Program-made: the position numbers and the translations under genes
Notes under the pieces: generated by a model
What the model was told of the DNA's origin: nothing
Databases searched by the model: none
Seen by the model: only the letters and a program-made list of their open reading frames with translations
Shown: one piece after another, positions 16,906 to 30,615 of the stretch
Layout: each line of letters starts with the position of its first letter
Position numbering within the stretch: the first letter of the stretch is position 1
DNA from: Synergistaceae bacterium UBA5560
Lineage (GTDB): Bacteria; Synergistota; Synergistia; Synergistales; Aminiphilaceae
DNA: 64,000 bases
Assembly (NCBI GenBank): GCA_002425685.1
Contig: DIMS01000056.1
Span: 16,511 to 80,510 of the forward strand
Direction of reading: 5' to 3'

Positions 16906-18186
16906 TCAGAGAAGCAGCCGGGGAAGAAGGAGCGTGATTCCCGGCAGGTAGGTGACGAGAAAGAGCACCGCCACGAGGATGAGCACCATGGGCACGATGG
17001 CCCGGCTGATCTGCTCCAGAGTGAGTCCCGTGATGGCGCTGGCCACGTAGATGTTGATCGCCACGGGAGGTGTGGCCATGCCGATGGCCAGGCCGATGAC
17101 GAGGATGAGCCCGAAGTGGATGGGGTCCACGCCGATCTTCTGAATGGTGGGCAGAAAGAGGGGCGTGAGGATGATGAGCGCCGACGCGGTCTCCATGAAC
17201 ATCCCCGCCAGGAGGATGATGATGTTCACCATGAGAAGGATCAGCAGAGGGCGGTTGCCCGCTAGGTTCATGAGTGTTCCCGCCACGGCCTCGGGGATTT
17301 GGTAGAAGGCCAGTCCCCAGCCGAAGAGCTTCGCCGTGGCGATGATGAACATGATCAGGGACGAGGTGATCCCCGCGCCCACGACGATGCGGTAGAACTG
17401 TTTCCACGTGAGGCTCCGGTAGATGAGGAAGGCCACGAGAAGCGTGTAGTCCACGGCGATGGCCGCCGCCTCGGAGGGGGTGAAGATCCCCGAGAAGATA
17501 CCCCCGAGGATGATCACCGGAGTCAGCAGTCCCCACAGGGCGTTGCGGAAACGGCGCCACTTCTCCGCTCCCGGCACGGGGTCGCCCAGGGGATAGTCGT
17601 GCCGGTGGGCGATCCAGATGGCGTAGGCGATGAGCCCCGTTCCCATGAGCGCCCCGGGAAGGAAACCGCCGAGAAAGAGCTTCGCCACGGATTCTCCGGC
17701 GATGACCGCGTAGAGCACCATGGGAACGCTGGGAGGGATGACCACGCCGGTGGTGCCTGCGCTGGCGATGAGCGCCGAGGAGAAGCAGAGGTCGTAACCC
17801 TTGCGCTTGAGCGAAGGGAGCAGAGCCGAGCCAACCGCCGCCGTGGTGGCCGCGCCGGAGCCGGAGATGGCGGCGATGAACATGGAGGCGATGGTGGAGA
17901 CGATGGAGAGCCCTCCCTTGATGCGTCCCAGGCCGCTTTCCGCAAAGGCCACGATGCGCTCCGAAATGCCGCCGCCGGCGAGGATGTCTCCGGCGAGGAC
18001 GAAGAAGGGCACCGCCACGAGGGCGAAGGAGTTGTTTCCCTCGAAGAGGGTCTGGGGCACCATTTCCAGGGGAAAGCCGCTCGCCACGAAGGAGGCCAGC
18101 GCGGCGAGGCCGATGGAGAGTCCGATGGGAACGCCCAGGAGCATGAGCAGAAGGAAACTGCCGCCGAGAAGAAGTCCCATGGTCAT
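16906..18186 (-). CDS. dctM: TRAP transporter large permease DctM
   Basis: ORF 16906-18624 trimmed to the ATG at 18186 (MTMGLLLGGSFLLL...). 12-TM DctM-type sequence. Overlaps dctQ by 4 nt. Confidence 0.85.
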   Translation of the reverse strand: MTMGLLLGGSFLLLMLLGVPIGLSIGLAALASFVASGFPLEMVPQTLFEGNNSFALVAVPFFVLAGDILAGGGISERIVAFAESGLGRIKGGLSIVSTIASMFIAAISGSGAATTAAVGSALLPSLKRKGYDLCFSSALIASAGTTGVVIPPSVPMVLYAVIAGESVAKLFLGGFLPGALMGTGLIAYAIWIAHRHDYPLGDPVPGAEKWRRFRNALWGLLTPVIILGGIFSGIFTPSEAAAIAVDYTLLVAFLIYRSLTWKQFYRIVVGAGITSSLIMFIIATAKLFGWGLAFYQIPEAVAGTLMNLAGNRPLLILLMVNIIILLAGMFMETASALIILTPLFLPTIQKIGVDPIHFGLILVIGLAIGMATPPVAINIYVASAITGLTLEQISRAIVPMVLILVAVLFLVTYLPGITLLLPRLLL

Positions 18187-18704
18187 TCCTCCTGGGGGAG
18201 GCGTTTCGCCTTCCACAATGTCAGAAGTCCCGAGAGAAGATGAAGGATGATGATGCTGCCGAAAAGGGGGTACATGAGATAGACCCAGCTCATGGAGATG
18301 CCCAGGGCCGGCGTGGTCTGGGAGCCCTCGGAGCGGACCAGCGCGGCGCCGTACCAGGCCACCACGGCGAAGAAGGTCACGCCCAGAATGTGCACGAGCA
18401 GGGCGAGGAGTTTCTGGAGCCCCTGGGGAAGGCGCTGCACCAGGAAGTTCACGGCCATGTGACTTCCCCTTTTGAAGGCGCAGGCAGCTCCGACGAGGGA
18501 TGCCAGAACGAGGAGAAAGCAGGTGAGTTCCTCCGACCAGGCGAGGGCGGTGAAGAAGAAACGGCAGACCACCTGAAGCGTGGTGACGGCGATCATGAGG
18601 AGCATGAGGAAGAAGAGGAAACACTCGCTCGCGTCGTTGATGCGGTCGCTGAGAAGAAGGAGGAGGGGGCGAGGCCCCTCCTCCCGGTTCGTCGCTGCGG
18701 TCAT
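18183..18704 (-). CDS. dctQ: TRAP transporter small permease DctQ
   Basis: 173-aa four-TM protein immediately upstream of dctM. Confidence 0.8.
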   Translation of the reverse strand: MTAATNREEGPRPLLLLLSDRINDASECFLFFLMLLMIAVTTLQVVCRFFFTALAWSEELTCFLLVLASLVGAACAFKRGSHMAVNFLVQRLPQGLQKLLALLVHILGVTFFAVVAWYGAALVRSEGSQTTPALGISMSWVYLMYPLFGSIIILHLLSGLLTLWKAKRLPQEE

Positions 18705-18711
18705 GACGCCC

Positions 18712-19683
18712 CTACTTGGTGTCCAGGATCTTCCGGATCAGTTCTTCGCCGAACTGGGGCCCGTACTGCGCGTACACGGATTCCACGGCCATACGGAAGG
18801 CCTCCGTGTCGGGGGTGGTGACTTCCATGCCGTTTTGCTTCACCAGCTCCAGCCATTCCGCCTCGCTCTTGTTGTTCGACGCACGCTCGAACTCCGCGGC
18901 TTTCTGAGCGGCGCTCTTCACGAGTTCCTTCTGGGCGTCGGAGAGCTTGTTCCAGGTCTTCAGGCTCATGATGAAGGGTGCGGGGGCATAGGCGTGGCGC
19001 GTGAGCGCCAGGTGTTTCTGGGTCTCGTAGAGCTTGAAGGCCACGATGACGTTCAGAGGATTCTCCTGTCCGTCCACGGTTCCCTGCTGAAGTGCCGTAA
19101 GGGCCTCCGTCCAGGCCATGGGGACCGCGTTGGCGCCGAGGGCCTTGAAGGAATCCACGTAGACGGGGTTCTGCATGACCCGGATCTTGAGATCCTTCAC
19201 GTCCGCGGGAGCGTTGACGGGCCTCTTGCTGTTCGTCAGGTTCCGGAAGCCCCGTTCCGCGAAGGCGAGTCCCTTCCATCCCTGGGGTTCCAGAGCGGCG
19301 AGGAGTTCCTGACCGATGGGGCCGTCCAGGACCTTGTAGGCATGCTCGGGATCCCGGAACAGGAAGGGCAGGTCGATGGCGCCGAAGGTGGGCACGAAGT
19401 TGATGATGGGACCGTTGGTGATGATGCCCATGTCCACCACGCCCATCTTCATGCGCTCCAGCAGGGTCCGCTCGTCGCCGAGCGTGGCGTTGGGGAAGAG
19501 CGTCACGGAGAGTTCTCCGCCGGAGCCCTTCTCCACAAGTTCCTTGAACTTCTCCGCCGCCAGGTGGAACGCGTCCTTCTCGTTCACCACGTGGGCGAGC
19601 TTGATCTCCGTCGCCGCGAGGGCGTTCCCCGCGAGGGCGAGCAGGAGACACGCGACGGTGCACAACAGCAGAAGACGTTTCAT
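18712..19683 (-). CDS. dctP: TRAP transporter solute receptor DctP (periplasmic binding protein)
   Basis: 323 aa. Signal peptide MKRLLLLCTVACLLLALAGNALA. DctP-family sequence. RBS AGGAGGTG. Confidence 0.85.
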   Translation of the reverse strand: MKRLLLLCTVACLLLALAGNALAATEIKLAHVVNEKDAFHLAAEKFKELVEKGSGGELSVTLFPNATLGDERTLLERMKMGVVDMGIITNGPIINFVPTFGAIDLPFLFRDPEHAYKVLDGPIGQELLAALEPQGWKGLAFAERGFRNLTNSKRPVNAPADVKDLKIRVMQNPVYVDSFKALGANAVPMAWTEALTALQQGTVDGQENPLNVIVAFKLYETQKHLALTRHAYAPAPFIMSLKTWNKLSDAQKELVKSAAQKAAEFERASNNKSEAEWLELVKQNGMEVTTPDTEAFRMAVESVYAQYGPQFGEELIRKILDTK

Positions 19684-23430: not shown

Positions 23431-23643
23431 TCAGGCCTGGTCGTCCTGCCAGGGGTCTCGGTACGGTTCTCCGAAGGGACCGCAGAAAAGCCCTCCCAGA
23501 TAGTCGGTCTTCTCCGGCGCGCTCCGTGCGTCCTGTTTCTCCCGGGTGAAGAGCGGAGAACCGTTCTCGAAGGAGAAGGCGAAATGGGAATAAGTCTGGG
23601 GAAACTCCATGCGTTCCTTTCTTTCCGATTCCTTGCGTGTCAT
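23431..23643 (-). CDS. Hypothetical small protein (about 70 aa) encoded between leuC and leuD
   Basis: ORF 23431-23652. The preferred start is the ATG at 23643, preceded by GAGGTGGAG. The stop lies 15 nt before the leuD ATG, so the leuD RBS is inside its 3' end. GC3-rich codon usage fits the genome. No recognisable domain. Confidence 0.4.
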   Translation of the reverse strand: MTRKESERKERMEFPQTYSHFAFSFENGSPLFTREKQDARSAPEKTDYLGGLFCGPFGEPYRDPWQDDQA

Positions 23644-23703
23644 CTTCTCCACCTCATTTCGTCCGGTTGTGTCGATACTGCTGAAAAGGAAAGCCCTTCC
23701 GGC

Positions 23704-26598: not shown

Positions 26599-27609
26599 TC
26601 AATCCTCCGGAGCCGATTTGGCCTCCATCCAGGGCATCATCTTGCGGAGTTCCGCGCCGACCTTCTCAATGGAATGATTCTTCTCCCGCTCCATCCACTT
26701 CTTCATCACCGGACGGCCGGACTGGTTTTCGAGGATCCAGTCCCTGGCGAATTCGCCGCTTTGCACCCGGCGGAGGAGTTCCTTCATGTTCTCCCGTACG
26801 TGCGCGTCCACCACCTTGGGGCCGGCGACGCAATCGCCGTACTTGGCGGTGTCGCTCACGGAATAGCGCATCCATCCCAGGCCGCCCTCGAACATCATGT
26901 CCACGATGAGCTTCAGCTCGTTGAGGCACTCGAAATAGGCGATCTCGGGTTGGTATCCCGCGTCGACGAGCGTATCGAATCCGGCCTTAACCAACTCCGT
27001 CACGCCGCCGCAGAGAACGGCCTGTTCGCCGAAGAGGTCCGTCTCAGTCTCCTCCGCGAAGGTGGTCTCGATGATGCCCGCCCGGCCGCAGCCGATGCCG
27101 GAACCGTAGGCGAGGGCCACATCCTTCGCCTTGCCGGAGGCATCCTGGTAGATGGCCAGGAGGCCGGGAACACCCTTCTTCTCCACGTACATGCGGCGGA
27201 CCAGATGGCCCGGCCCCTTGGGGGCGATCATGAAGACGTCCGTGTCCTTCGGGGGCTCCACCTGGTTGAAATGAATGGTGAACCCATGGGCAAAGGCGAG
27301 AGTGGCACCCTTCTTCAGGTTGGGACGCACGTCCTCCCGATAGACCTTCGCCTGGACGTGGTCGGGCATGAGGAACATGATGATGTCTCCCTTGGCGACG
27401 GCCTTTGCCACGGAGAGCACCTCGAAGCCGTCCTTTTCGGCGGTTTTTTTCGAACGGCTGCCCTCGTGAAGACCGATGAGCACCGACACACCACTGTCGC
27501 GGAGATTCTGGGCATGGGCATGGCCCTGACTGCCGTATCCGAGGATGACCACGGTCTTGCCCTTGAGTACCTTCATCTGTGCGTCCTTGTCGTAGTACAC
27601 GTTTGCCAC
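26599..27609 (-). CDS. ilvC: Ketol-acid reductoisomerase
   Basis: 336 aa. GTG start at 27609 after GAAGGAGGAAG. NADPH motif [10 protein letters not shown]. Confidence 0.9.
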
Positions 27610-27803
27610 GTTTCTTCCTCCTTCAGCTTTTTCCTCGATCCGATTCGGGATCTCTCCGAGAAAAGCGCGAATGCGTTCCGGAAAGAATGCCTTGTCCTGT
27701 CTTCGTCCGATGTTGCAGCCCTTTGAACGCGTCTTTTCCGAGACGTTCTCCCCGGGTTGATGCCGGGGTCTTTTCTCCTCCCTTCCTCGGTCGTTTCAGA
27801 TAT

Positions 27804-27837
27804 CGCGCCGGGGAGCACATCTGCTCTCCCCGGCGCG
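27804..27837. other. 12-bp perfect GC hairpin immediately 3' of the ilvN stop codon (CGCGCCGGGGAG-10nt-CTCCCCGGCGCG)
   Basis: Read directly. It lies within the 231-bp ilvN-ilvC spacer, which also holds a second hairpin CCCCGG-gttgatg-CCGGGG. No U tract follows on the minus strand. Confidence 0.35.
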
Positions 27838-27840
27838 GAT

Positions 27841-28416
27841 TCATGCGAATGAAGGTTCGGGATGTCGCAGGGATTCCGTCTCCGTCTCGCGGACGGGAAT
27901 CTCCTGCCGGGACGTGCGGGAATCGGCGGCGAATCCGGCGCGTTCCATGGCGACGGCGCCACTGGAGGCCACTTCCAGGATGCCGAAGGGGCGAACCGCT
28001 TCGACGAAGGCATCCATTTTCCCCTGGTCGCCCGTGAGCTCCAGGATCACCGCGTCCTCCCCCATGTCCACCACGCGGCAACGGAAGACCTCCGCGGTCT
28101 GGAGCACGTGGGGACGGACATCCATGGGAGCGTGGACCTTCACGAGCATCATCCACCGCTCCACGAAGGGATTTCTGCTCAGGCTGCGGACCTCCACGGT
28201 TTCCACGAGCTTCTCAAGCTGCTTCACGATCTGGTCTGCGGGCACATCGTCCCCGCCTACGACCAGGGTGAACCGGGAAAGTCCGGATTGGTGCGTGCGC
28301 CCCACGCTCAGGCTGTTCACGTTGTATCCTCTCCGGGACACGAGCCCGGAAAGCCGCGAGAGAACTCCGGGATGATCTTCCGTCAGAACGCTGATGGTGG
28401 TGTGCTTGTGCCGCAT
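27841..28416 (-). CDS. ilvN: Acetolactate synthase small (regulatory) subunit
   Basis: 191 aa. N-terminal ACT domain (ISVLTEDHPGVLSRLSGLVSRRGYNVNSLSV) plus the C-terminal IlvN/IlvH domain. RBS GAGGAGGGAAGG. Confidence 0.85.
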   Translation of the reverse strand: MRHKHTTISVLTEDHPGVLSRLSGLVSRRGYNVNSLSVGRTHQSGLSRFTLVVGGDDVPADQIVKQLEKLVETVEVRSLSRNPFVERWMMLVKVHAPMDVRPHVLQTAEVFRCRVVDMGEDAVILELTGDQGKMDAFVEAVRPFGILEVASSGAVAMERAGFAADSRTSRQEIPVRETETESLRHPEPSFA

Positions 28417-28540
28417 GCCCTTCCCTCCTCACTCGGATGGTGGTGCGCTGTCGGTGCTTCCCTGCCGCTCTTCGCGGCGCTCGGACTCTCCGCAGTCGTG
28501 TCTCGAACCTTTCTTTGCTACGGTAATTGCGTAAGGTAAA

Positions 28541-28584
28541 ACACATGAAAAAAGGGCCGGAACCCGTCTTGCGGGTCCCGGCCC
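28541..28584 (-). terminator. Attenuator intrinsic terminator of the ilv-leu leader (13-bp stem GGGCCGGGACCCG/CGGGTTCCGGCCC, then UUUUUUCAUGUGUUUU)
   Basis: Read directly. It lies 15 nt after the leader-peptide stop and about 125 nt before the ilvN ATG. Confidence 0.7.
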
Positions 28585-28602
28585 TGGTAGCCCTTCGGTC
28601 GG

Positions 28603-28713
28603 TTACATGCGACCGAGCGCTCCGGGAGGGGACCCGCAGCGAAGAATAAGGACTACAAGCAGAATAAGGGCCAGAGAAGAGCGAATCACTGTTGCGGCCT
28701 GTGTCTCGTGCAC
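28603..28713 (-). CDS. ilv-leu leader peptide (36 aa: MHETQAATVIRSSLALILLVVLILRCGSPPGALGRM)
   Basis: GTG start 7 nt after GGAGGG. Codons 14-24 encode L-A-L-I-L-L-V-V-L-I-L using CTT/ATT/GTA codons that are rare for this genome. Not in the ORF table (under 60 aa). It lies inside the spurious 168-aa ORF 28214-28720. Confidence 0.65.
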   Translation of the reverse strand: MHETQAATVIRSSLALILLVVLILRCGSPPGALGRM

Positions 28714-28776
28714 GAGTCATCCCTCCTTTTCGTGAGCTTCGGTCATCGTTCGGCTGGGCCGTTCGAGTTGTTGGAC

Positions 28777-28805
28777 ATTCTAGGCGCCTTTGCGTTCTGT
28801 GTCAA
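28777..28805 (-). promoter_or_regulatory. Consensus sigma70 promoter TTGACA-17-TAGAAT driving the ilv-leu leader
   Basis: Minus strand: gggTTGACAcagaacgcaaaggcgccTAGAATgtcc. The predicted TSS is about 57 nt upstream of the leader-peptide start. Confidence 0.6.
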
Positions 28806-29113
28806 CCCTCTTTTTCAAAAGTGTCATCTTTTGTTGCGGAAGGAGCAAAAATTCCGTTCTTCCGGGAACTTTCAAAAAGAAGAGGCACAGGCTTTTCGTA
28901 CAGATATTGCAAGGTCGGAGGCGCTCCTCTCCTCCAGGATTGCTCTTCTGGAGGAGAGGGAAAGGAATGGAATTTTTGTCCGCGTGTTCGCGGAATCTTT
29001 CGCGGCATCCCGCGAAATTCCTGCCGCATCCCGCAATCCCGGTAAAAACGCCTTCGGGAACCTTGCGCTCCGGAAACAGGCGGTGCGAGGTGTGTCGGGG
29101 CGGGTTGCTCTCT

Positions 29114-29821
29114 TCAGCGCCCCAGATAAGCCGCACGTACCTCGTCCATGGCGGCCAGGTCCGATGCCTTGCCGCTGAGGACGATGCGCCCCGTCTCGAG
29201 GACATAGCCCCGGTCGGCGATGGCGAGGGCCATGTTGGCGTTCTGCTCCACCAGGAGAATGGTCATGCCGGACTTCCGGACTTCCACGATGGTCCGGAAG
29301 ACCTCCTCGACGAGGATAGGTGCGAGTCCCATGGAGGGTTCGTCGAGAATCATGAGTGTCCCCCGTCCCATGAGGGCCCTGCCCACGGCGAGCATCTGCT
29401 GCTCGCCTCCGGAAAGGGTGCCCGCTTCCTGATGCCGCCGTTCCTTGAGGCGGGAAAAGAGCGAGAAGACCCTCTCCATGTCCTCGGCGATGGCGGCGGT
29501 GTCCTCGCGGATGTAGGAGCCCAGAAGCAAGTTGTCCTCCACGGTGAGATTGGGAAAGACGAGGCGCCCCTCCGGCACGTGGGTGATGCCGGCGCTGACG
29601 ATGTCGTGGGGAGGAATTCCCACGAGGTTCCGCCCCTTGTAGAGGATCTCCCCCGTTTTGGCCGGAACGAGACCTGAGATGGCCCGGAGGATGCTCGTCT
29701 TGCCCGCGCCGTTGGCGCCCACGAGCGTGACGATCTCCCCCTTTTCCACGGAGAAGGAGACGCCCTTCACGGCCTCGATGGCGCCATAGGCGACGCGGAG
29801 GTCCTTCACGTCGAGCATCAT
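29114..29821 (-). CDS. livF: Branched-chain amino acid ABC transporter ATP-binding protein LivF
   Basis: ORF 29114-30199 trimmed to the ATG at 29821 (MMLDVKDLRVAYGAIEAVKGV...). The start overlaps the livG stop (ATGA). Walker A GANGAGKTS. Confidence 0.9.
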   Translation of the reverse strand: MMLDVKDLRVAYGAIEAVKGVSFSVEKGEIVTLVGANGAGKTSILRAISGLVPAKTGEILYKGRNLVGIPPHDIVSAGITHVPEGRLVFPNLTVEDNLLLGSYIREDTAAIAEDMERVFSLFSRLKERRHQEAGTLSGGEQQMLAVGRALMGRGTLMILDEPSMGLAPILVEEVFRTIVEVRKSGMTILLVEQNANMALAIADRGYVLETGRIVLSGKASDLAAMDEVRAAYLGR

Positions 29822-30615
29822 GCCACCTTCCCCCCTTTGCCGAGATAGGCTTCGATGACCTTCGGGTCGTTCTTGATGTCCTCGGATTGTCCCTCGGCGA
29901 TGGTGACGCCGAAGTTCAGGACGGAAATGCGGTTGCAGATCTCCATGACGAGCTGCATGTGATGCTCGATGAGGAGGATCGTCACCTGGAACTCTTTTCT
30001 GATCCAGGTGATGGAATCCGCCAGGGTGTCCACCTCCTGGGGATTCATCCCCGCTGCGGGCTCGTCCAGAAGAAGGAGCTTCGGCGAAGTGGCCAGGGCA
30101 CGGGCGATTTCGAGCCGCCGCTGGATGCCGTAGGGCAGGTTCGTGGCCAGCGTGTCGGCGAAGGGAAGCAGGTTGAGTTTCTCCAGGAGGACGAGGCACT
30201 CCTCCTCCACCTGGCGTTCCGTCTCCGTCACGCTCCGGGAGCGCAGGAAGGCGGGAACGAGTCCGTAGGTGATCCGGGGATGCCGGGCGATCTTGATGTT
30301 GTCCAGGGCGGACAGGTTTTTGAAGAGGCGGATGTTCTGGAACGTTCTGGCGATGCCCCGGATCGTGTAGTCGTGGGTGGGTTTCCCCACCAGATTTTCA
30401 CCGCGGAAGAGAATTTCCCCTTCCGTGGGCGCGTAGATACCCGTGAGCATGTTGAAGACCGTGGTCTTCCCCGCTCCGTTGGGCCCGATGAGCCCCGCCA
30501 GCTCTCCCTCCGGAAGGGAGAGCGTGAAGTTCGTCACCGCCTTCAGACCGCCGAAGGCGATGCTCAGGTTGCGCACGTCGAGAATCGGCCGGGATGTCTC
30601 CTGCGGAGTCGTCAT
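29818..30615 (-). CDS. livG: Branched-chain amino acid ABC transporter ATP-binding protein LivG
   Basis: 265 aa. Walker [10 protein letters not shown] plus the LivG-type extended C-terminus. Confidence 0.9.
   Translation of the reverse strand: MTTPQETSRPILDVRNLSIAFGGLKAVTNFTLSLPEGELAGLIGPNGAGKTTVFNMLTGIYAPTEGEILFRGENLVGKPTHDYTIRGIARTFQNIRLFKNLSALDNIKIARHPRITYGLVPAFLRSRSVTETERQVEEECLVLLEKLNLLPFADTLATNLPYGIQRRLEIARALATSPKLLLLDEPAAGMNPQEVDTLADSITWIRKEFQVTILLIEHHMQLVMEICNRISVLNFGVTIAEGQSEDIKNDPKVIEAYLGKGGKVA

What the first reader, a model, noticed from the sequence alone, without database searches (positions are those of the whole stretch)
28541..28805. Classical leader-peptide transcription attenuator in front of the 13.7-kb ilv-leu operon
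On the minus strand a near-consensus promoter (TTGACA-17-TAGAAT) is followed by GGAGGG-7nt-GTG and a 36-codon ORF, MHETQAATVIRSSLALILLVVLILRCGSPPGALGRM. Its codons 14-24 are eleven consecutive Leu/Ile/Val/Ala, encoded largely by CTT, ATT and GTA, codons that are rare in this GC3-rich genome. Fifteen nt after its stop lies a 13-bp GC hairpin plus UUUUUU, about 125 nt before ilvN. The segment CGGGTCCC (peptide codons 26-29) is complementary to the 5' arm of the terminator (GGGACCCG), giving the mutually exclusive antiterminator expected for ribosome-stalling control. The ORF is absent from the ORF table (under 60 aa) and is hidden inside a spurious 168-aa ORF. This is E. coli/Salmonella-style ilv/leu attenuation in what looks like a Synergistetes-like organism, where such leaders have not, to my knowledge, been catalogued.
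Basis: partly seen in the sequence, partly recalled or inferred. Interest (0 to 1): 0.8.

Follow-up and report, generated by a model that had tools for sequence, protein, structure and literature searches.

The report
Leader-peptide attenuator of ilv-leu operon
A short upstream reading frame rich in leucine, isoleucine and valine codons, followed by two mutually exclusive RNA hairpins, very probably switches the branched-chain amino-acid operon of this Aminiphilus-like (Synergistota) bacterium on when those amino acids run short; this is a textbook mechanism, here found conserved across a phylum where I found no record of it.

Summary
On the minus strand a TTGACA-17-TAGAAT promoter is followed by GGAGGG-7-GTG and a 36-codon ORF (28713-28603). 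Codons 14-24 of the ORF are Leu/Ala/Ile/Val. Then comes a 14-bp terminator with T6, 131 nt before ilvN.

The transcript cut before the terminator's 3' arm folds into an antiterminator (-48 kcal/mol). It pairs ORF codons 26-32 with the terminator's 5' arm, and the stop codon sits in its apical loop.

The same design precedes ilvN in every Synergistota locus examined:
- 5 genome loci;
- about 10 metagenome loci;
- 7 loci chosen only by IlvN homology (Acetomicrobium, Thermovirgaceae, Cloacibacillus and others, down to 48% IlvN identity).

Both alternative helices show compensatory changes. The peptide's N-terminus drifts freely, while the hydrophobic run and the rare GTA and ATT codons are kept.

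No Rfam family matches, and I found no paper describing it. It is a new member of a known kind, analogous in layout to E. coli ilvL.

No expression data exist, so the response to amino-acid supply is inferred.

The same scaffold also precedes a 55-aa ORF of unknown function. A Phe/Tyr/Ile-run version precedes a membrane protein.

The parts
28777..28805 (-). Sigma-70-type promoter: TTGACA (28805-28800), 17 nt, TAGAAT (28782-28777)
   Evidence: 11 of 12 consensus positions, the only hit in 3.5 kb. TTGACA-17-TAnnAT lies at the same place in all related loci.
28721..28726 (-). Shine-Dalgarno GGAGGG of the leader ORF, 7 nt before the GTG. It is also the 5' partner of the predicted 1:2 (anti-antiterminator) pairing.
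   Evidence: GGAGG is invariant in 24 distinct leaders. In the full-length MFE it pairs with CCUCC of region 2. That helix is 88.6% paired across alignment A2 but shows no covariation.
28603..28713 (-). Leader ORF: 36 codons plus TAA, MHETQAATVIRSSLALILLVVLILRCGSPPGALGRM
   Evidence: Homologous ORFs of 22-36 codons occur in all relatives. Twenty-three of them, found with the RNA pattern, are exactly 30 codons long, with the run at codons 11-19.
28642..28674 (-). Regulatory codon run, codons 14-24: L A L I L L V V L I L (6 Leu, 2 Ile, 2 Val, 1 Ala)
   Evidence: unusually rare synonymous codons (P = 0.002), and the only such run in the window. The run is conserved in character in all relatives, and GTA and ATT codons are conserved.
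28619..28638 (-). Region 2, the 5' arm of the antiterminator: UGCGGGUCCCCUCCCGGAGC, ORF codons 26-32
   Evidence: in the nascent transcript it pairs with 28584-28570; the 2:3 helix is 88.6% paired in 14 lineages, with 5 pairs changed on both sides.
28593..28617 (-). Inner hairpin of the antiterminator, with the stop codon UAA in its 8-nt loop
   Evidence: In relatives an equivalent hairpin of different sequence also presents UAA or UAG in its loop.
28548..28585 (-). Intrinsic terminator: 5' arm 28585-28572 (region 3), loop 28571-28567, 3' arm 28566-28553 (region 4), T6 28553-28548
   Evidence: 14 pairs, 11 G-C.: -30.6 kcal/mol; 90.1% paired in 14 lineages, with 6 pairs changed on both sides.
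27841..28416 (-). ilvN (acetolactate synthase small subunit), first structural gene of the controlled ilv-leu cluster
   Evidence: Pfam ALS_ss_C and ACT_AHAS_ss; 100% identical to a protein that NCBI names as from Aminiphilus sp.

Best explanation
This is a ribosome-mediated (leader-peptide) transcription attenuator that sets read-through into ilvN-ilvC-leuABCD-ilvB-(TRAP)-ilvD according to the supply of charged Leu, Ile and Val tRNAs.

Proposed sequence of events:
1. Transcription starts about 7 nt after TAGAAT, and a ribosome loads at GGAGGG-N7-GTG.
2. When branched-chain amino acids are plentiful, the ribosome runs through the codon run and over region 2 (codons 26-32) to the UAA, which lies in the apical loop of the would-be antiterminator.
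3. A ribosome anywhere from about codon 22 to the stop covers region 2 or sits between regions 2 and 3. Region 3 then pairs with region 4, and the 14-bp hairpin plus U6 terminates transcription at about 28548.
4. When a cognate charged tRNA is scarce, the ribosome stalls with its A site at codons 14 to about 21. Region 2 stays free and pairs with region 3 as it emerges. The terminator cannot form, and RNA polymerase reads into ilvN.
5. Without any translation, region 2 is predicted to pair first with the SD/start region (1:2). That leaves region 3 for the terminator and hides the SD.

Shown directly: the sequence elements, the alternative folds, their conservation and their covariation. Inferred: ribosome stalling, the timing, the footprint geometry (I assumed +12 nt beyond the A-site codon), the role of the 1:2 pairing, and the physiological response.
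For: - **Elements present.** Promoter, SD, ORF, run and terminator are all there.
- **Full-length fold.** The MFE has SD:region 2 plus the terminator.
- **Nascent fold.** Cut before region 4, the transcript forms the 2:3 antiterminator: -48 kcal/mol in the window and about -40 in relatives, against -31 to -35 for the terminator. It stays intact when the ribosome's A site is at or before codon 21.
- **Pattern-found relatives.** The same architecture precedes ilvN-ilvC-leuA in 5 Synergistales genome loci and about 10 metagenome loci.
- **Independently chosen relatives.** Seven loci picked only by IlvN homology all have it, including one (L109) whose arm sequences are entirely different.
- **Covariation.** The 2:3 helix has 5 pairs and the 3:4 helix 6 pairs with changes on both sides. 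Only 3 of 500 shuffles reach each value, and the slid controls are far lower.
- **Peptide evolution.** Codons 2-10 differ by about 25% per site, equally at all three codon positions. The run is nearly invariant, and the length is fixed at 30 codons in 23 leaders.
- **Rare codons kept.** GTA (3% of Val) and ATT (12-15% of Ile) are retained in the run across lineages.
- **Run tracks operon content (one case).** In the Cloacibacillus locus the visible operon is ilvN-ilvC-ilvB with no leu genes, and the run (IVVVVRII) has no Leu codon.
- **Parallel with E. coli.** The layout matches ilvL: run, then a Pro/Gly/Ala-rich tail encoded by region 2, then the stop inside a hairpin.
Against: - There is no expression, 3'-end or ribosome-profiling evidence of any kind.
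- At equilibrium the full-length RNA always folds into the terminator, whatever ribosome mask is applied. The switch therefore has to be kinetic, as in known attenuators, and that cannot be tested here.
- In the untranslated nascent transcript the 2:3 fold, not 1:2, is the MFE. The role of the 1:2 pairing is therefore uncertain, and it shows no covariation.
- Many pattern-found relatives were selected by requiring the three core 8-mers, so the invariance of those 8-mers is not evidence.
- The same scaffold with a BCAA run also precedes a 55-aa ORF with no known link to BCAA metabolism.
- A hydrophobic 36-aa peptide also looks like a small membrane peptide.
- A CodY-like regulator has been predicted for ilv genes in this phylum (PMC9318921), so attenuation need not be the only control.
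Confidence: 0.85

Rival explanations
1. The small ORF encodes a functional hydrophobic membrane peptide (a small membrane protein or type I toxin-like peptide) with its own promoter and terminator. Its position in front of ilvN is incidental.
For: The peptide has an 11-residue hydrophobic stretch flanked by polar and charged residues, of transmembrane-helix length. It has a strong SD and its own terminator. Variants with other hydrophobic runs exist, such as FFIYIYIYF in L016.
Against: - The N-terminal 9 codons evolve without codon-position bias, so the amino-acid sequence there is not under selection.
- The C-terminal tail is conserved at the nucleotide level, exactly where it forms region 2.
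- The 5' arm of an antiterminator lies inside the ORF and covaries with the terminator.
- No other promoter for ilvN lies between the terminator and the gene.
- The ORF is always on the same strand directly upstream of ilvN, although the upstream neighbours differ among lineages.
Confidence: 0.04
2. Termination is controlled by something other than the ribosome: a ligand-binding riboswitch, a T-box-type tRNA sensor, or an RNA-binding protein acting on the 2:3/3:4 switch. The ORF would be a by-product.
For: BCAA operons in Firmicutes use T-boxes or ppGpp riboswitches. The leader is strongly structured (z = -4.05). A CodY-like regulon including ilv genes is predicted in Synergistota (PMC9318921).
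Against: - No Rfam family matches, even at E up to 10 (T-box, ykkC/ppGpp and others).
- No conserved structured domain remains outside the ORF and the switch helices.
- The most conserved feature apart from the helices is a run of cognate codons in a fixed frame at a fixed distance from region 2.
- No canonical CodY box occurs in the window, even with 3 mismatches. CodY would in any case act on DNA, in addition to attenuation rather than in its place.
Confidence: 0.06
3. Chance: an intergenic ORF that happens to lie between a promoter-like site and the terminator of some other transcript.
For: Single promoter-like and terminator-like hits are expected at about the observed rate in shuffled sequence (0.6 and 3.7 expected in 3.5 kb).
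Against: All the elements are conserved together in more than 30 loci from several families of the phylum, with compensatory changes. The run is unique in the window.
Confidence: 0.01

Closest known systems
E. coli/Salmonella ilvGMEDA leader (ilvL, peptide MTALLRVISLVVISVVVIIIPPCGAALGRGKA)
   Same: - It is multivalent, with Leu, Ile and Val codons in one run in the middle of a peptide of about 32 aa.
- The run is followed by a Pro/Gly/Ala-rich tail encoded by the GC-rich 5' arm of the antiterminator.
- The stop codon lies inside a hairpin between regions 2 and 3, followed by a GC-rich terminator and a U-tract.
- It controls a BCAA biosynthetic operon.
   Different: - There is no detectable sequence homology. 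The E. coli region matches Rfam RF02744 and the Synergistota leaders do not. Peptide similarity is limited to composition.
- The first gene here is ilvN, and leu genes are in the same operon.
- Region 2 here carries CCUCC, which can pair with the leader's own SD.
E. coli leu operon leader (Rfam Leu_leader RF00512) and ilvBN leader (ivbL)
   Same: The mechanism class is the same, with the control codons well upstream of the stop so that the translating ribosome melts the antiterminator.
   Different: Those leaders are monovalent or bivalent (Leu only, or Val/Leu; from established knowledge). No covariance-model match was found.
Leader-peptide attenuators of ilv operons in Gram-positives: Corynebacterium ilvBNC uORF (PMC10272879, PMC11857589), actinobacterial ilvB leaders (PMC1262725), S. 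aureus and Listeria ilv-leu leader peptides (PMC5794164, PMC5864092)
   Same: A short BCAA-rich uORF with terminator/antiterminator alternatives precedes the ilv(-leu) genes, outside Proteobacteria. In Firmicutes it is combined with CodY control.
   Different: These are different phyla with unrelated sequences. I did not compare the structures in detail. Whether the predicted Synergistota CodY-like regulator (PMC9318921) acts at this promoter is unknown.

Membership tests
Ribosome-mediated (leader-peptide) transcription attenuators (functional class) | Short ORF with SD and start codon in the 5' leader, downstream of the operon promoter | tested here: met
   Conserved in all relatives.
Ribosome-mediated (leader-peptide) transcription attenuators (functional class) | Cluster of codons for the amino acid(s) made by the controlled operon | tested here: met
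   Ten Leu/Ile/Val codons in an 11-codon run. The run is conserved in character across lineages. The operon encodes Ilv and Leu enzymes.
Ribosome-mediated (leader-peptide) transcription attenuators (functional class) | Intrinsic terminator between the leader ORF and the first structural gene | tested here: met
   14 bp plus T6, 131 nt before ilvN. Covariation.
Ribosome-mediated (leader-peptide) transcription attenuators (functional class) | Antiterminator mutually exclusive with the terminator, with its 5' arm within reach of a ribosome translating the end of the leader ORF but free when the ribosome stalls at the control codons | tested here: met
   (nascent-transcript folds with the footprint assumption). 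Covariation.
Ribosome-mediated (leader-peptide) transcription attenuators (functional class) | Upstream segment (region 1) able to sequester region 2 when the leader is not translated | tested here: inconclusive
   SD/start:region 2 pairing appears in the full-length MFE and is 88.6% paired across A2, but without covariation. It is not the MFE of the nascent transcript.
Ribosome-mediated (leader-peptide) transcription attenuators (functional class) | Read-through rises when the cognate aminoacyl-tRNA is limiting and depends on translation of the leader | not testable with these tools
   This needs term-seq, reporter or in vitro coupled assays.
Rfam amino-acid leader families (Leu_leader RF00512, Thr/His/Trp leaders, RF02744 covering enterobacterial ilvL) | Match to the family covariance model at gathering score | tested here: not met
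   no such hit, even at E up to 10; none in 8 related loci, while E. coli ilvL hits RF02744 at 157 bits.
T-box leader / ppGpp (ykkC-type) riboswitch controlling BCAA genes | Match to the Rfam model; conserved specifier or T-box sequence, or aptamer | tested here: not met
   no match.

The most novel reading that the evidence does not exclude
The window's leader may be one member of an old, phylum-wide Synergistota family of homologous attenuators built on one scaffold: region 2 CGGGUYCCCUCC, a hairpin displaying the stop codon, and the terminator GGGACCCG...CGGGUYCC.

The family may have been re-targeted by swapping the codon run and the downstream gene:
- a Leu/Ile/Val run before ilv-leu;
- an Ile/Val-only run before ilvNCB;
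- a Leu/Phe/Val/Ile run before a 55-aa protein of unknown function;
- a Phe/Tyr/Ile run before a membrane protein.

An SD:anti-SD pairing may limit the leader to one round of translation. If so, the 55-aa protein and the membrane protein would be newly implicated in amino-acid homeostasis.
Probability: 0.45. Interest if true: 0.5.

Novelty: new member of a known kind. Interest (0 to 1): 0.38.

Why it matters
- **Range of the mechanism.** It extends classical leader-peptide attenuation of branched-chain amino-acid synthesis to Synergistota. For that phylum, only a predicted CodY-like regulon had been proposed for ilv genes in the papers I could search.
- **A possible new RNA family.** More than 30 sequences with covariation would be enough to found one.
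- **Genome annotation.** It corrects spurious calls: 31-33-aa "hypothetical proteins" in some assemblies and the 168-aa ORF here.
- **Evolution of attenuators.** Because the scaffold recurs with different codon runs, it offers a natural series for studying how attenuators are re-programmed.
- **New candidates.** It flags two uncharacterised genes as candidates for amino-acid-responsive functions.

The mechanism itself is textbook, so a specialist would not be surprised.

Tried and rejected
- **Rfam scan at permissive E-value.** The leader gave only chance-level hits on the opposite strand.
- **Equilibrium folding with a masked ribosome footprint.** The full leader always kept the terminator. 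This says nothing about a kinetic switch, so I replaced it with folds of the nascent transcript. My first script for that placed the cut wrongly for 3 of 4 sequences and was redone.
- **Canonical CodY box.** AATTTTCWGAAAATT with up to 3 mismatches gives no hit in the window. AT-rich stretches upstream of -35 (e.g. AATTTT-N15-AAAAGA at about 28860-28830) were seen by eye only and not tested.
- **Second copy of the scaffold.** A relaxed-pattern search of the window and all loci found none in the window. One unrelated terminator turned up in L092.
- **Link between the two small ORFs.** The 70-aa ORF between leuC and leuD is not significantly similar to the 55-aa ORF of groups C/D (E = 1.0).
- **Pfam on small ORFs.** The 55-aa and 70-aa ORFs and the partial L016 membrane protein gave nothing usable.
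- **Firmicute outgroup.** L110 (Thermovenabulum) looks T-box-like by eye but has no Rfam hit at gathering score, so I make no claim about it.
- **Pattern-scan noise.** About two thirds of the 93 pattern hits were unrelated GC-rich sequence lacking both a T-tract and an ORF.

Full report
**1. The observation**

- The consensus scan finds one sigma-70-type site in 27000-30500: TTGACA (28805) - 17 nt - TAGAAT (to 28777), an 11/12 match. It also finds one strong minus-strand terminator, 28585-28553, with 14 pairs (11 G-C), a 5-nt loop and then T6.
- GGAGGG (28726-28721) lies 7 nt before the GTG at 28713.
- The ORF runs 36 codons to TAA at 28605-28603 and reads MHETQAATVIRSSLALILLVVLILRCGSPPGALGRM.

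Corrections are minor. The stem is 14 bp, not 13. It begins 17 nt after the stop, not 15. The T-tract ends 131 nt before the ilvN ATG at 28416.

The run at codons 14-24 uses CTT x4, ATT x2 and GTA x1.
- In 11 genes of the window these codons are 14%, 15% and 3% of their synonymous families, and GC3 is 0.82.
- A random synonymous draw is this rare in 0.2% of trials.
- It is the only such hydrophobic run in six frames of 64 kb.

The leader folds more stably than all 200 shuffles (z = -4.05).

**2. Context**

Pfam identifies the minus-strand genes downstream as ilvN, ilvC, leuA, leuC, leuD, leuB, ilvB, a TRAP transporter (dctP and a dctQM fusion) and ilvD. Upstream lies a liv-type branched-chain ABC transporter ending near 29114.

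No other promoter-like site and no convincing minus-strand terminator lies between 28550 and 13500. A single transcription unit of about 13.3 kb is therefore plausible but not shown.

The overlapping 168-aa ORF has no family match. No Rfam family matches the leader, even at E up to 10.

IlvN is 100% identical to a protein that NCBI names as from Aminiphilus sp.. Aminiphilus belongs to Synergistota, Aminiphilaceae.

**3. Alternative structures**

The full-length leader folds into three parts: the SD/start region paired with region 2, a small hairpin holding the stop codon, and the terminator.

Masking a ribosome footprint never removes the terminator at equilibrium. That is expected for a kinetic switch and is not informative.

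Cutting the transcript just before the terminator's 3' arm gives the decisive picture.
- UGCGGGUCCC (codons 26-29, 28638-28629) pairs with GGGACCCGCA of the terminator's 5' arm.
- The helix is extended by CCC/GGG and by an inner hairpin whose 8-nt loop contains the UAA.
- The whole antiterminator is -48 kcal/mol, against -30.6 for the terminator.

I assumed the footprint reaches 12 nt beyond the A-site codon.
- The antiterminator is then fully available with the A site at codons 14-21.
- It is progressively covered from codon 23 on.
- A ribosome at the stop codon sits between regions 2 and 3.

**4. Relatives found by protein and by RNA pattern**

A genome scan with IlvN returned five Synergistales/Synergistaceae MAG loci at about 65% identity. 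Each has four elements about 230 nt upstream of ilvN:
- a TTGACA-17-TATNAT promoter;
- AAGGAGGGG-N7-GTG;
- a 30-codon ORF MK[PT]S....LVLVLALIIGHGFPPGAAGA;
- the terminator GGCCGGGACCCGC...GCGGGUCCCGGCC-U6/7.

The spacing between region 2 and region 3 is identical to the window's.

A metagenome scan used the pattern CGGGTYCC-N40-60-GGGACCCG-N3-15-CGGGTYCC. It returned 93 loci.
- Every hit followed by a T-tract has an SD-preceded small ORF spanning region 2.
- One hit is the window's own organism (L008, 100% identical).
- About ten are of the group above, all followed by ilvN-ilvC-leuA-leuC...ilvB.

Twenty-four distinct leaders align over 191 columns (A2).
- The ORF is exactly 30 codons in 23 of them, with the run at codons 11-19.
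- Codons 2-10 differ by about 25% per site, equally at the three codon positions.
- The run is nearly invariant. It ends in GTA-GCN-CTG-ATT-ATT, although GTA is 3% of Val and ATT 12% of Ile codons in those genomes.

This is what is expected of a peptide that must be translated but has no function of its own.

**5. Relatives chosen without reference to the RNA**

The three core 8-mers were imposed by the search pattern, so I also took IlvN homologues from a protein search and fetched their contigs. All seven Synergistota loci have the same design upstream of ilvN:

| Locus | IlvN match or identity | Leader peptide |
|---|---|---|
| L102 | Acetomicrobium flavidum IlvN | MLHQDVIRMELVLVLALIIISCGSPPGA |
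| L103 | Thermovirgaceae | MSTSAACQRNNANLIAILVLVLIIGSGSPPGALTG |
| L104 | Cloacibacillus | MRKDMMVNVSNIVVVVRIISSGSPELAGA |
| L105 | 76% identity | MMILSGFCAVVVLILVLLITCGSSPGVPVVR (called as a 31-aa gene) |
| L106 | 79% identity | MYKQSLVLTLVLSILVVLISCGSPPGASVFA |
| L108 | 59% identity | MRRNGIIIDSLSNLVLVLVLLISSGSPSEVAGA (called as a 33-aa gene) |
| L109 | 48% identity | MTGRFSSVLVIVVVIILAGLLG |

In each locus the nascent transcript forms an antiterminator (-28 to -45 kcal/mol). It uses the terminator's 5' arm (terminators are -20 to -32 kcal/mol) and encloses the stop codon.

In L109 all three arms have a different sequence (GGGUCUGCUUGGAU / AUCCAAGCCGGCCC / GGGUCGGCUUGA), yet the logic is kept.

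On a 14-lineage alignment (A3):
- the 2:3 helix is 88.6% paired, with 5 pairs changed on both sides;
- the terminator is 90.1% paired, with 6 such pairs;
- each value is reached by 3 of 500 shuffles;
- sliding the partner by one column drops pairing to 54-64%.

Examples, read from the A3 rows:
- L103 changes C:G to A:U in 2:3 and G:C to U:A in 3:4 at the shared position.
- L104 and L105 change A:U to G:C in the terminator, while region 2 keeps U (U:A becomes U:G).

In the Cloacibacillus locus the visible operon is ilvN-ilvC-ilvB without leu genes, and its run has no Leu codon. This is a single but suggestive case of the codon run tracking operon content.

A Firmicute outgroup (Thermovenabulum, L110) has ilvB-ilvN-leuA behind a structured leader without such an ORF.

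**6. Mechanism**

The best-supported reading is classical multivalent attenuation, as set out in the Best explanation section.

Shown directly:
- the elements;
- the two competing folds;
- their conservation and covariation.

Inferred:
- stalling at the run;
- the steric exclusion of 2:3 by a ribosome at or near the stop;
- the kinetic order of folding;
- the role of the SD:CCUCC (1:2) pairing;
- the physiological response.

The 1:2 pairing is conserved (88.6% of cells). However, both partners are constrained for other reasons, nothing covaries, and it is not the MFE of the nascent transcript. I rate it as plausible only.

**7. Comparison with known systems**

The E. coli ilvL leader, fetched for comparison, has the same layout.
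- It is 32 codons long, with a mixed Leu/Ile/Val run in the middle.
- It has a PPCGAALGRG tail encoded by the antiterminator's 5' arm. Compare SPPGALGRM in the window's peptide.
- Its stop codon lies within a hairpin.

There is no detectable sequence relationship. E. coli ilvL matches Rfam RF02744 at 157 bits, and none of the Synergistota leaders matches any family. The Pro/Gly/Ala tail is what GC-rich helices encode in frame, so the resemblance may be convergent.

Leader-peptide control of ilv genes is documented or predicted in Proteobacteria, Actinobacteria and some Firmicutes (PMC1262725, PMC10272879, PMC5794164, PMC5864092, PMC2965389).

Searches combining Synergistetes with leader peptide, attenuation or ilv found no description of this element.
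- A structured-RNA survey that included Thermovirga lienii does not mention it in its main text (PMC6429828).
- For Synergistetes, the only ilv regulation I found proposed is a predicted CodY-like regulon (PMC9318921).
- The library is incomplete; for example, Lopatovskaya et al. 2010 is not held. "Not catalogued" therefore means not found.

**8. Verdict**

This is a new, well-conserved member of a known kind of regulator. It is of moderate interest: ordinary in mechanism, useful for annotation and as a new RNA family. The side finding is that the scaffold has been reused with other codon runs and other genes.

Noticed in passing
L021 3291-3733 (-), L054 7603-8025 (-), also L025, L042, L044, L059, L067, L069, L076, L080, L087, L089: The same attenuator scaffold precedes a different gene: a conserved 55-aa ORF (MLNEKLIFQAVKMSQ...EHRRGIPWSWLAFRGPFEGYR) with its own terminator, not ilv genes. 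The leader peptides are MKGFNALNNGLLVVVALIISRGSPPGVAGV or MKGYSSSNNGLFAIVALIIRRGSPPGEAGA. The 55-aa protein has no Pfam match. Its 13 homologues are all unnamed or 'hypothetical'; the only organism named for any of them is Synergistaceae.
   Followed up: partly
L016 2643-2811 (+) and the gene starting at 2903: The same scaffold carries a different codon run, MRSEITTALSFFIYIYIYFMCGSLPVSTGI (Phe/Tyr/Ile). It lies upstream of a membrane protein cut by the contig end, which has no usable Pfam match. It may be an aromatic-amino-acid or Ile-responsive attenuator of a transporter.
   Followed up: partly
L104 2823-2963 (Cloacibacillus sp. MAG): The leader peptide MRKDMMVNVSNIVVVVRIISSGSPELAGA has Ile and Val codons but no Leu codon. 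The visible operon is ilvN-ilvC-ilvB without leu genes. This is a single case suggesting that the codon run tracks operon content.
   Followed up: partly
window 23431-23652 (-): A 70-73-aa ORF with a Shine-Dalgarno sequence fills a 288-nt gap between leuC and leuD: MTRKESERKERMEFPQTYSHFAFSFENGSPLFTREKQDARSAPEKTDYLGGLFCGPFGEPYRDPWQDDQA. The group-B relatives appear to lack this gap. The ORF has no Pfam match and no significant similarity to the 55-aa ORF above.
   Followed up: partly
window 16906-19683 (-); L103 1-2536: TRAP transporter genes (dctP and a dctQM fusion) sit between ilvB and ilvD inside the ilv-leu cluster. In a Thermovirgaceae locus, dctP-dctQ-dctM lies immediately upstream of the ilv leader. 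The substrate is unknown; uptake of a 2-oxo acid or BCAA precursor is a guess.
   Followed up: no
window about 28806-28870 (-): AT-rich stretches lie just upstream of the -35 hexamer in a 63% GC genome (GGAATTTTTGCTCCTTCCGCAACAAAAGATGACACTTTTGAAAAAGAGGG). They loosely resemble the AATTTT-N15-AAAATT motif reported for a Synergistetes CodY-like protein (PMC9318921). No canonical CodY box occurs within 3 mismatches. They could equally be an UP element.
   Followed up: partly
L105 2805-2900; L108 2822-2923: In some public assemblies the leader ORF has been called as a 31- or 33-aa gene with no annotation. In the window it is masked by a spurious 168-aa ORF (28214-28720).
   Followed up: yes
L110 900-1335 (Thermovenabulum, Firmicutes): The ilvB-ilvN-leuA operon is preceded by a long structured leader with a terminator but no BCAA-run ORF. 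By eye it looks T-box-like (GGGTGGTACCACGGG), yet no Rfam family reaches gathering score.
   Followed up: partly
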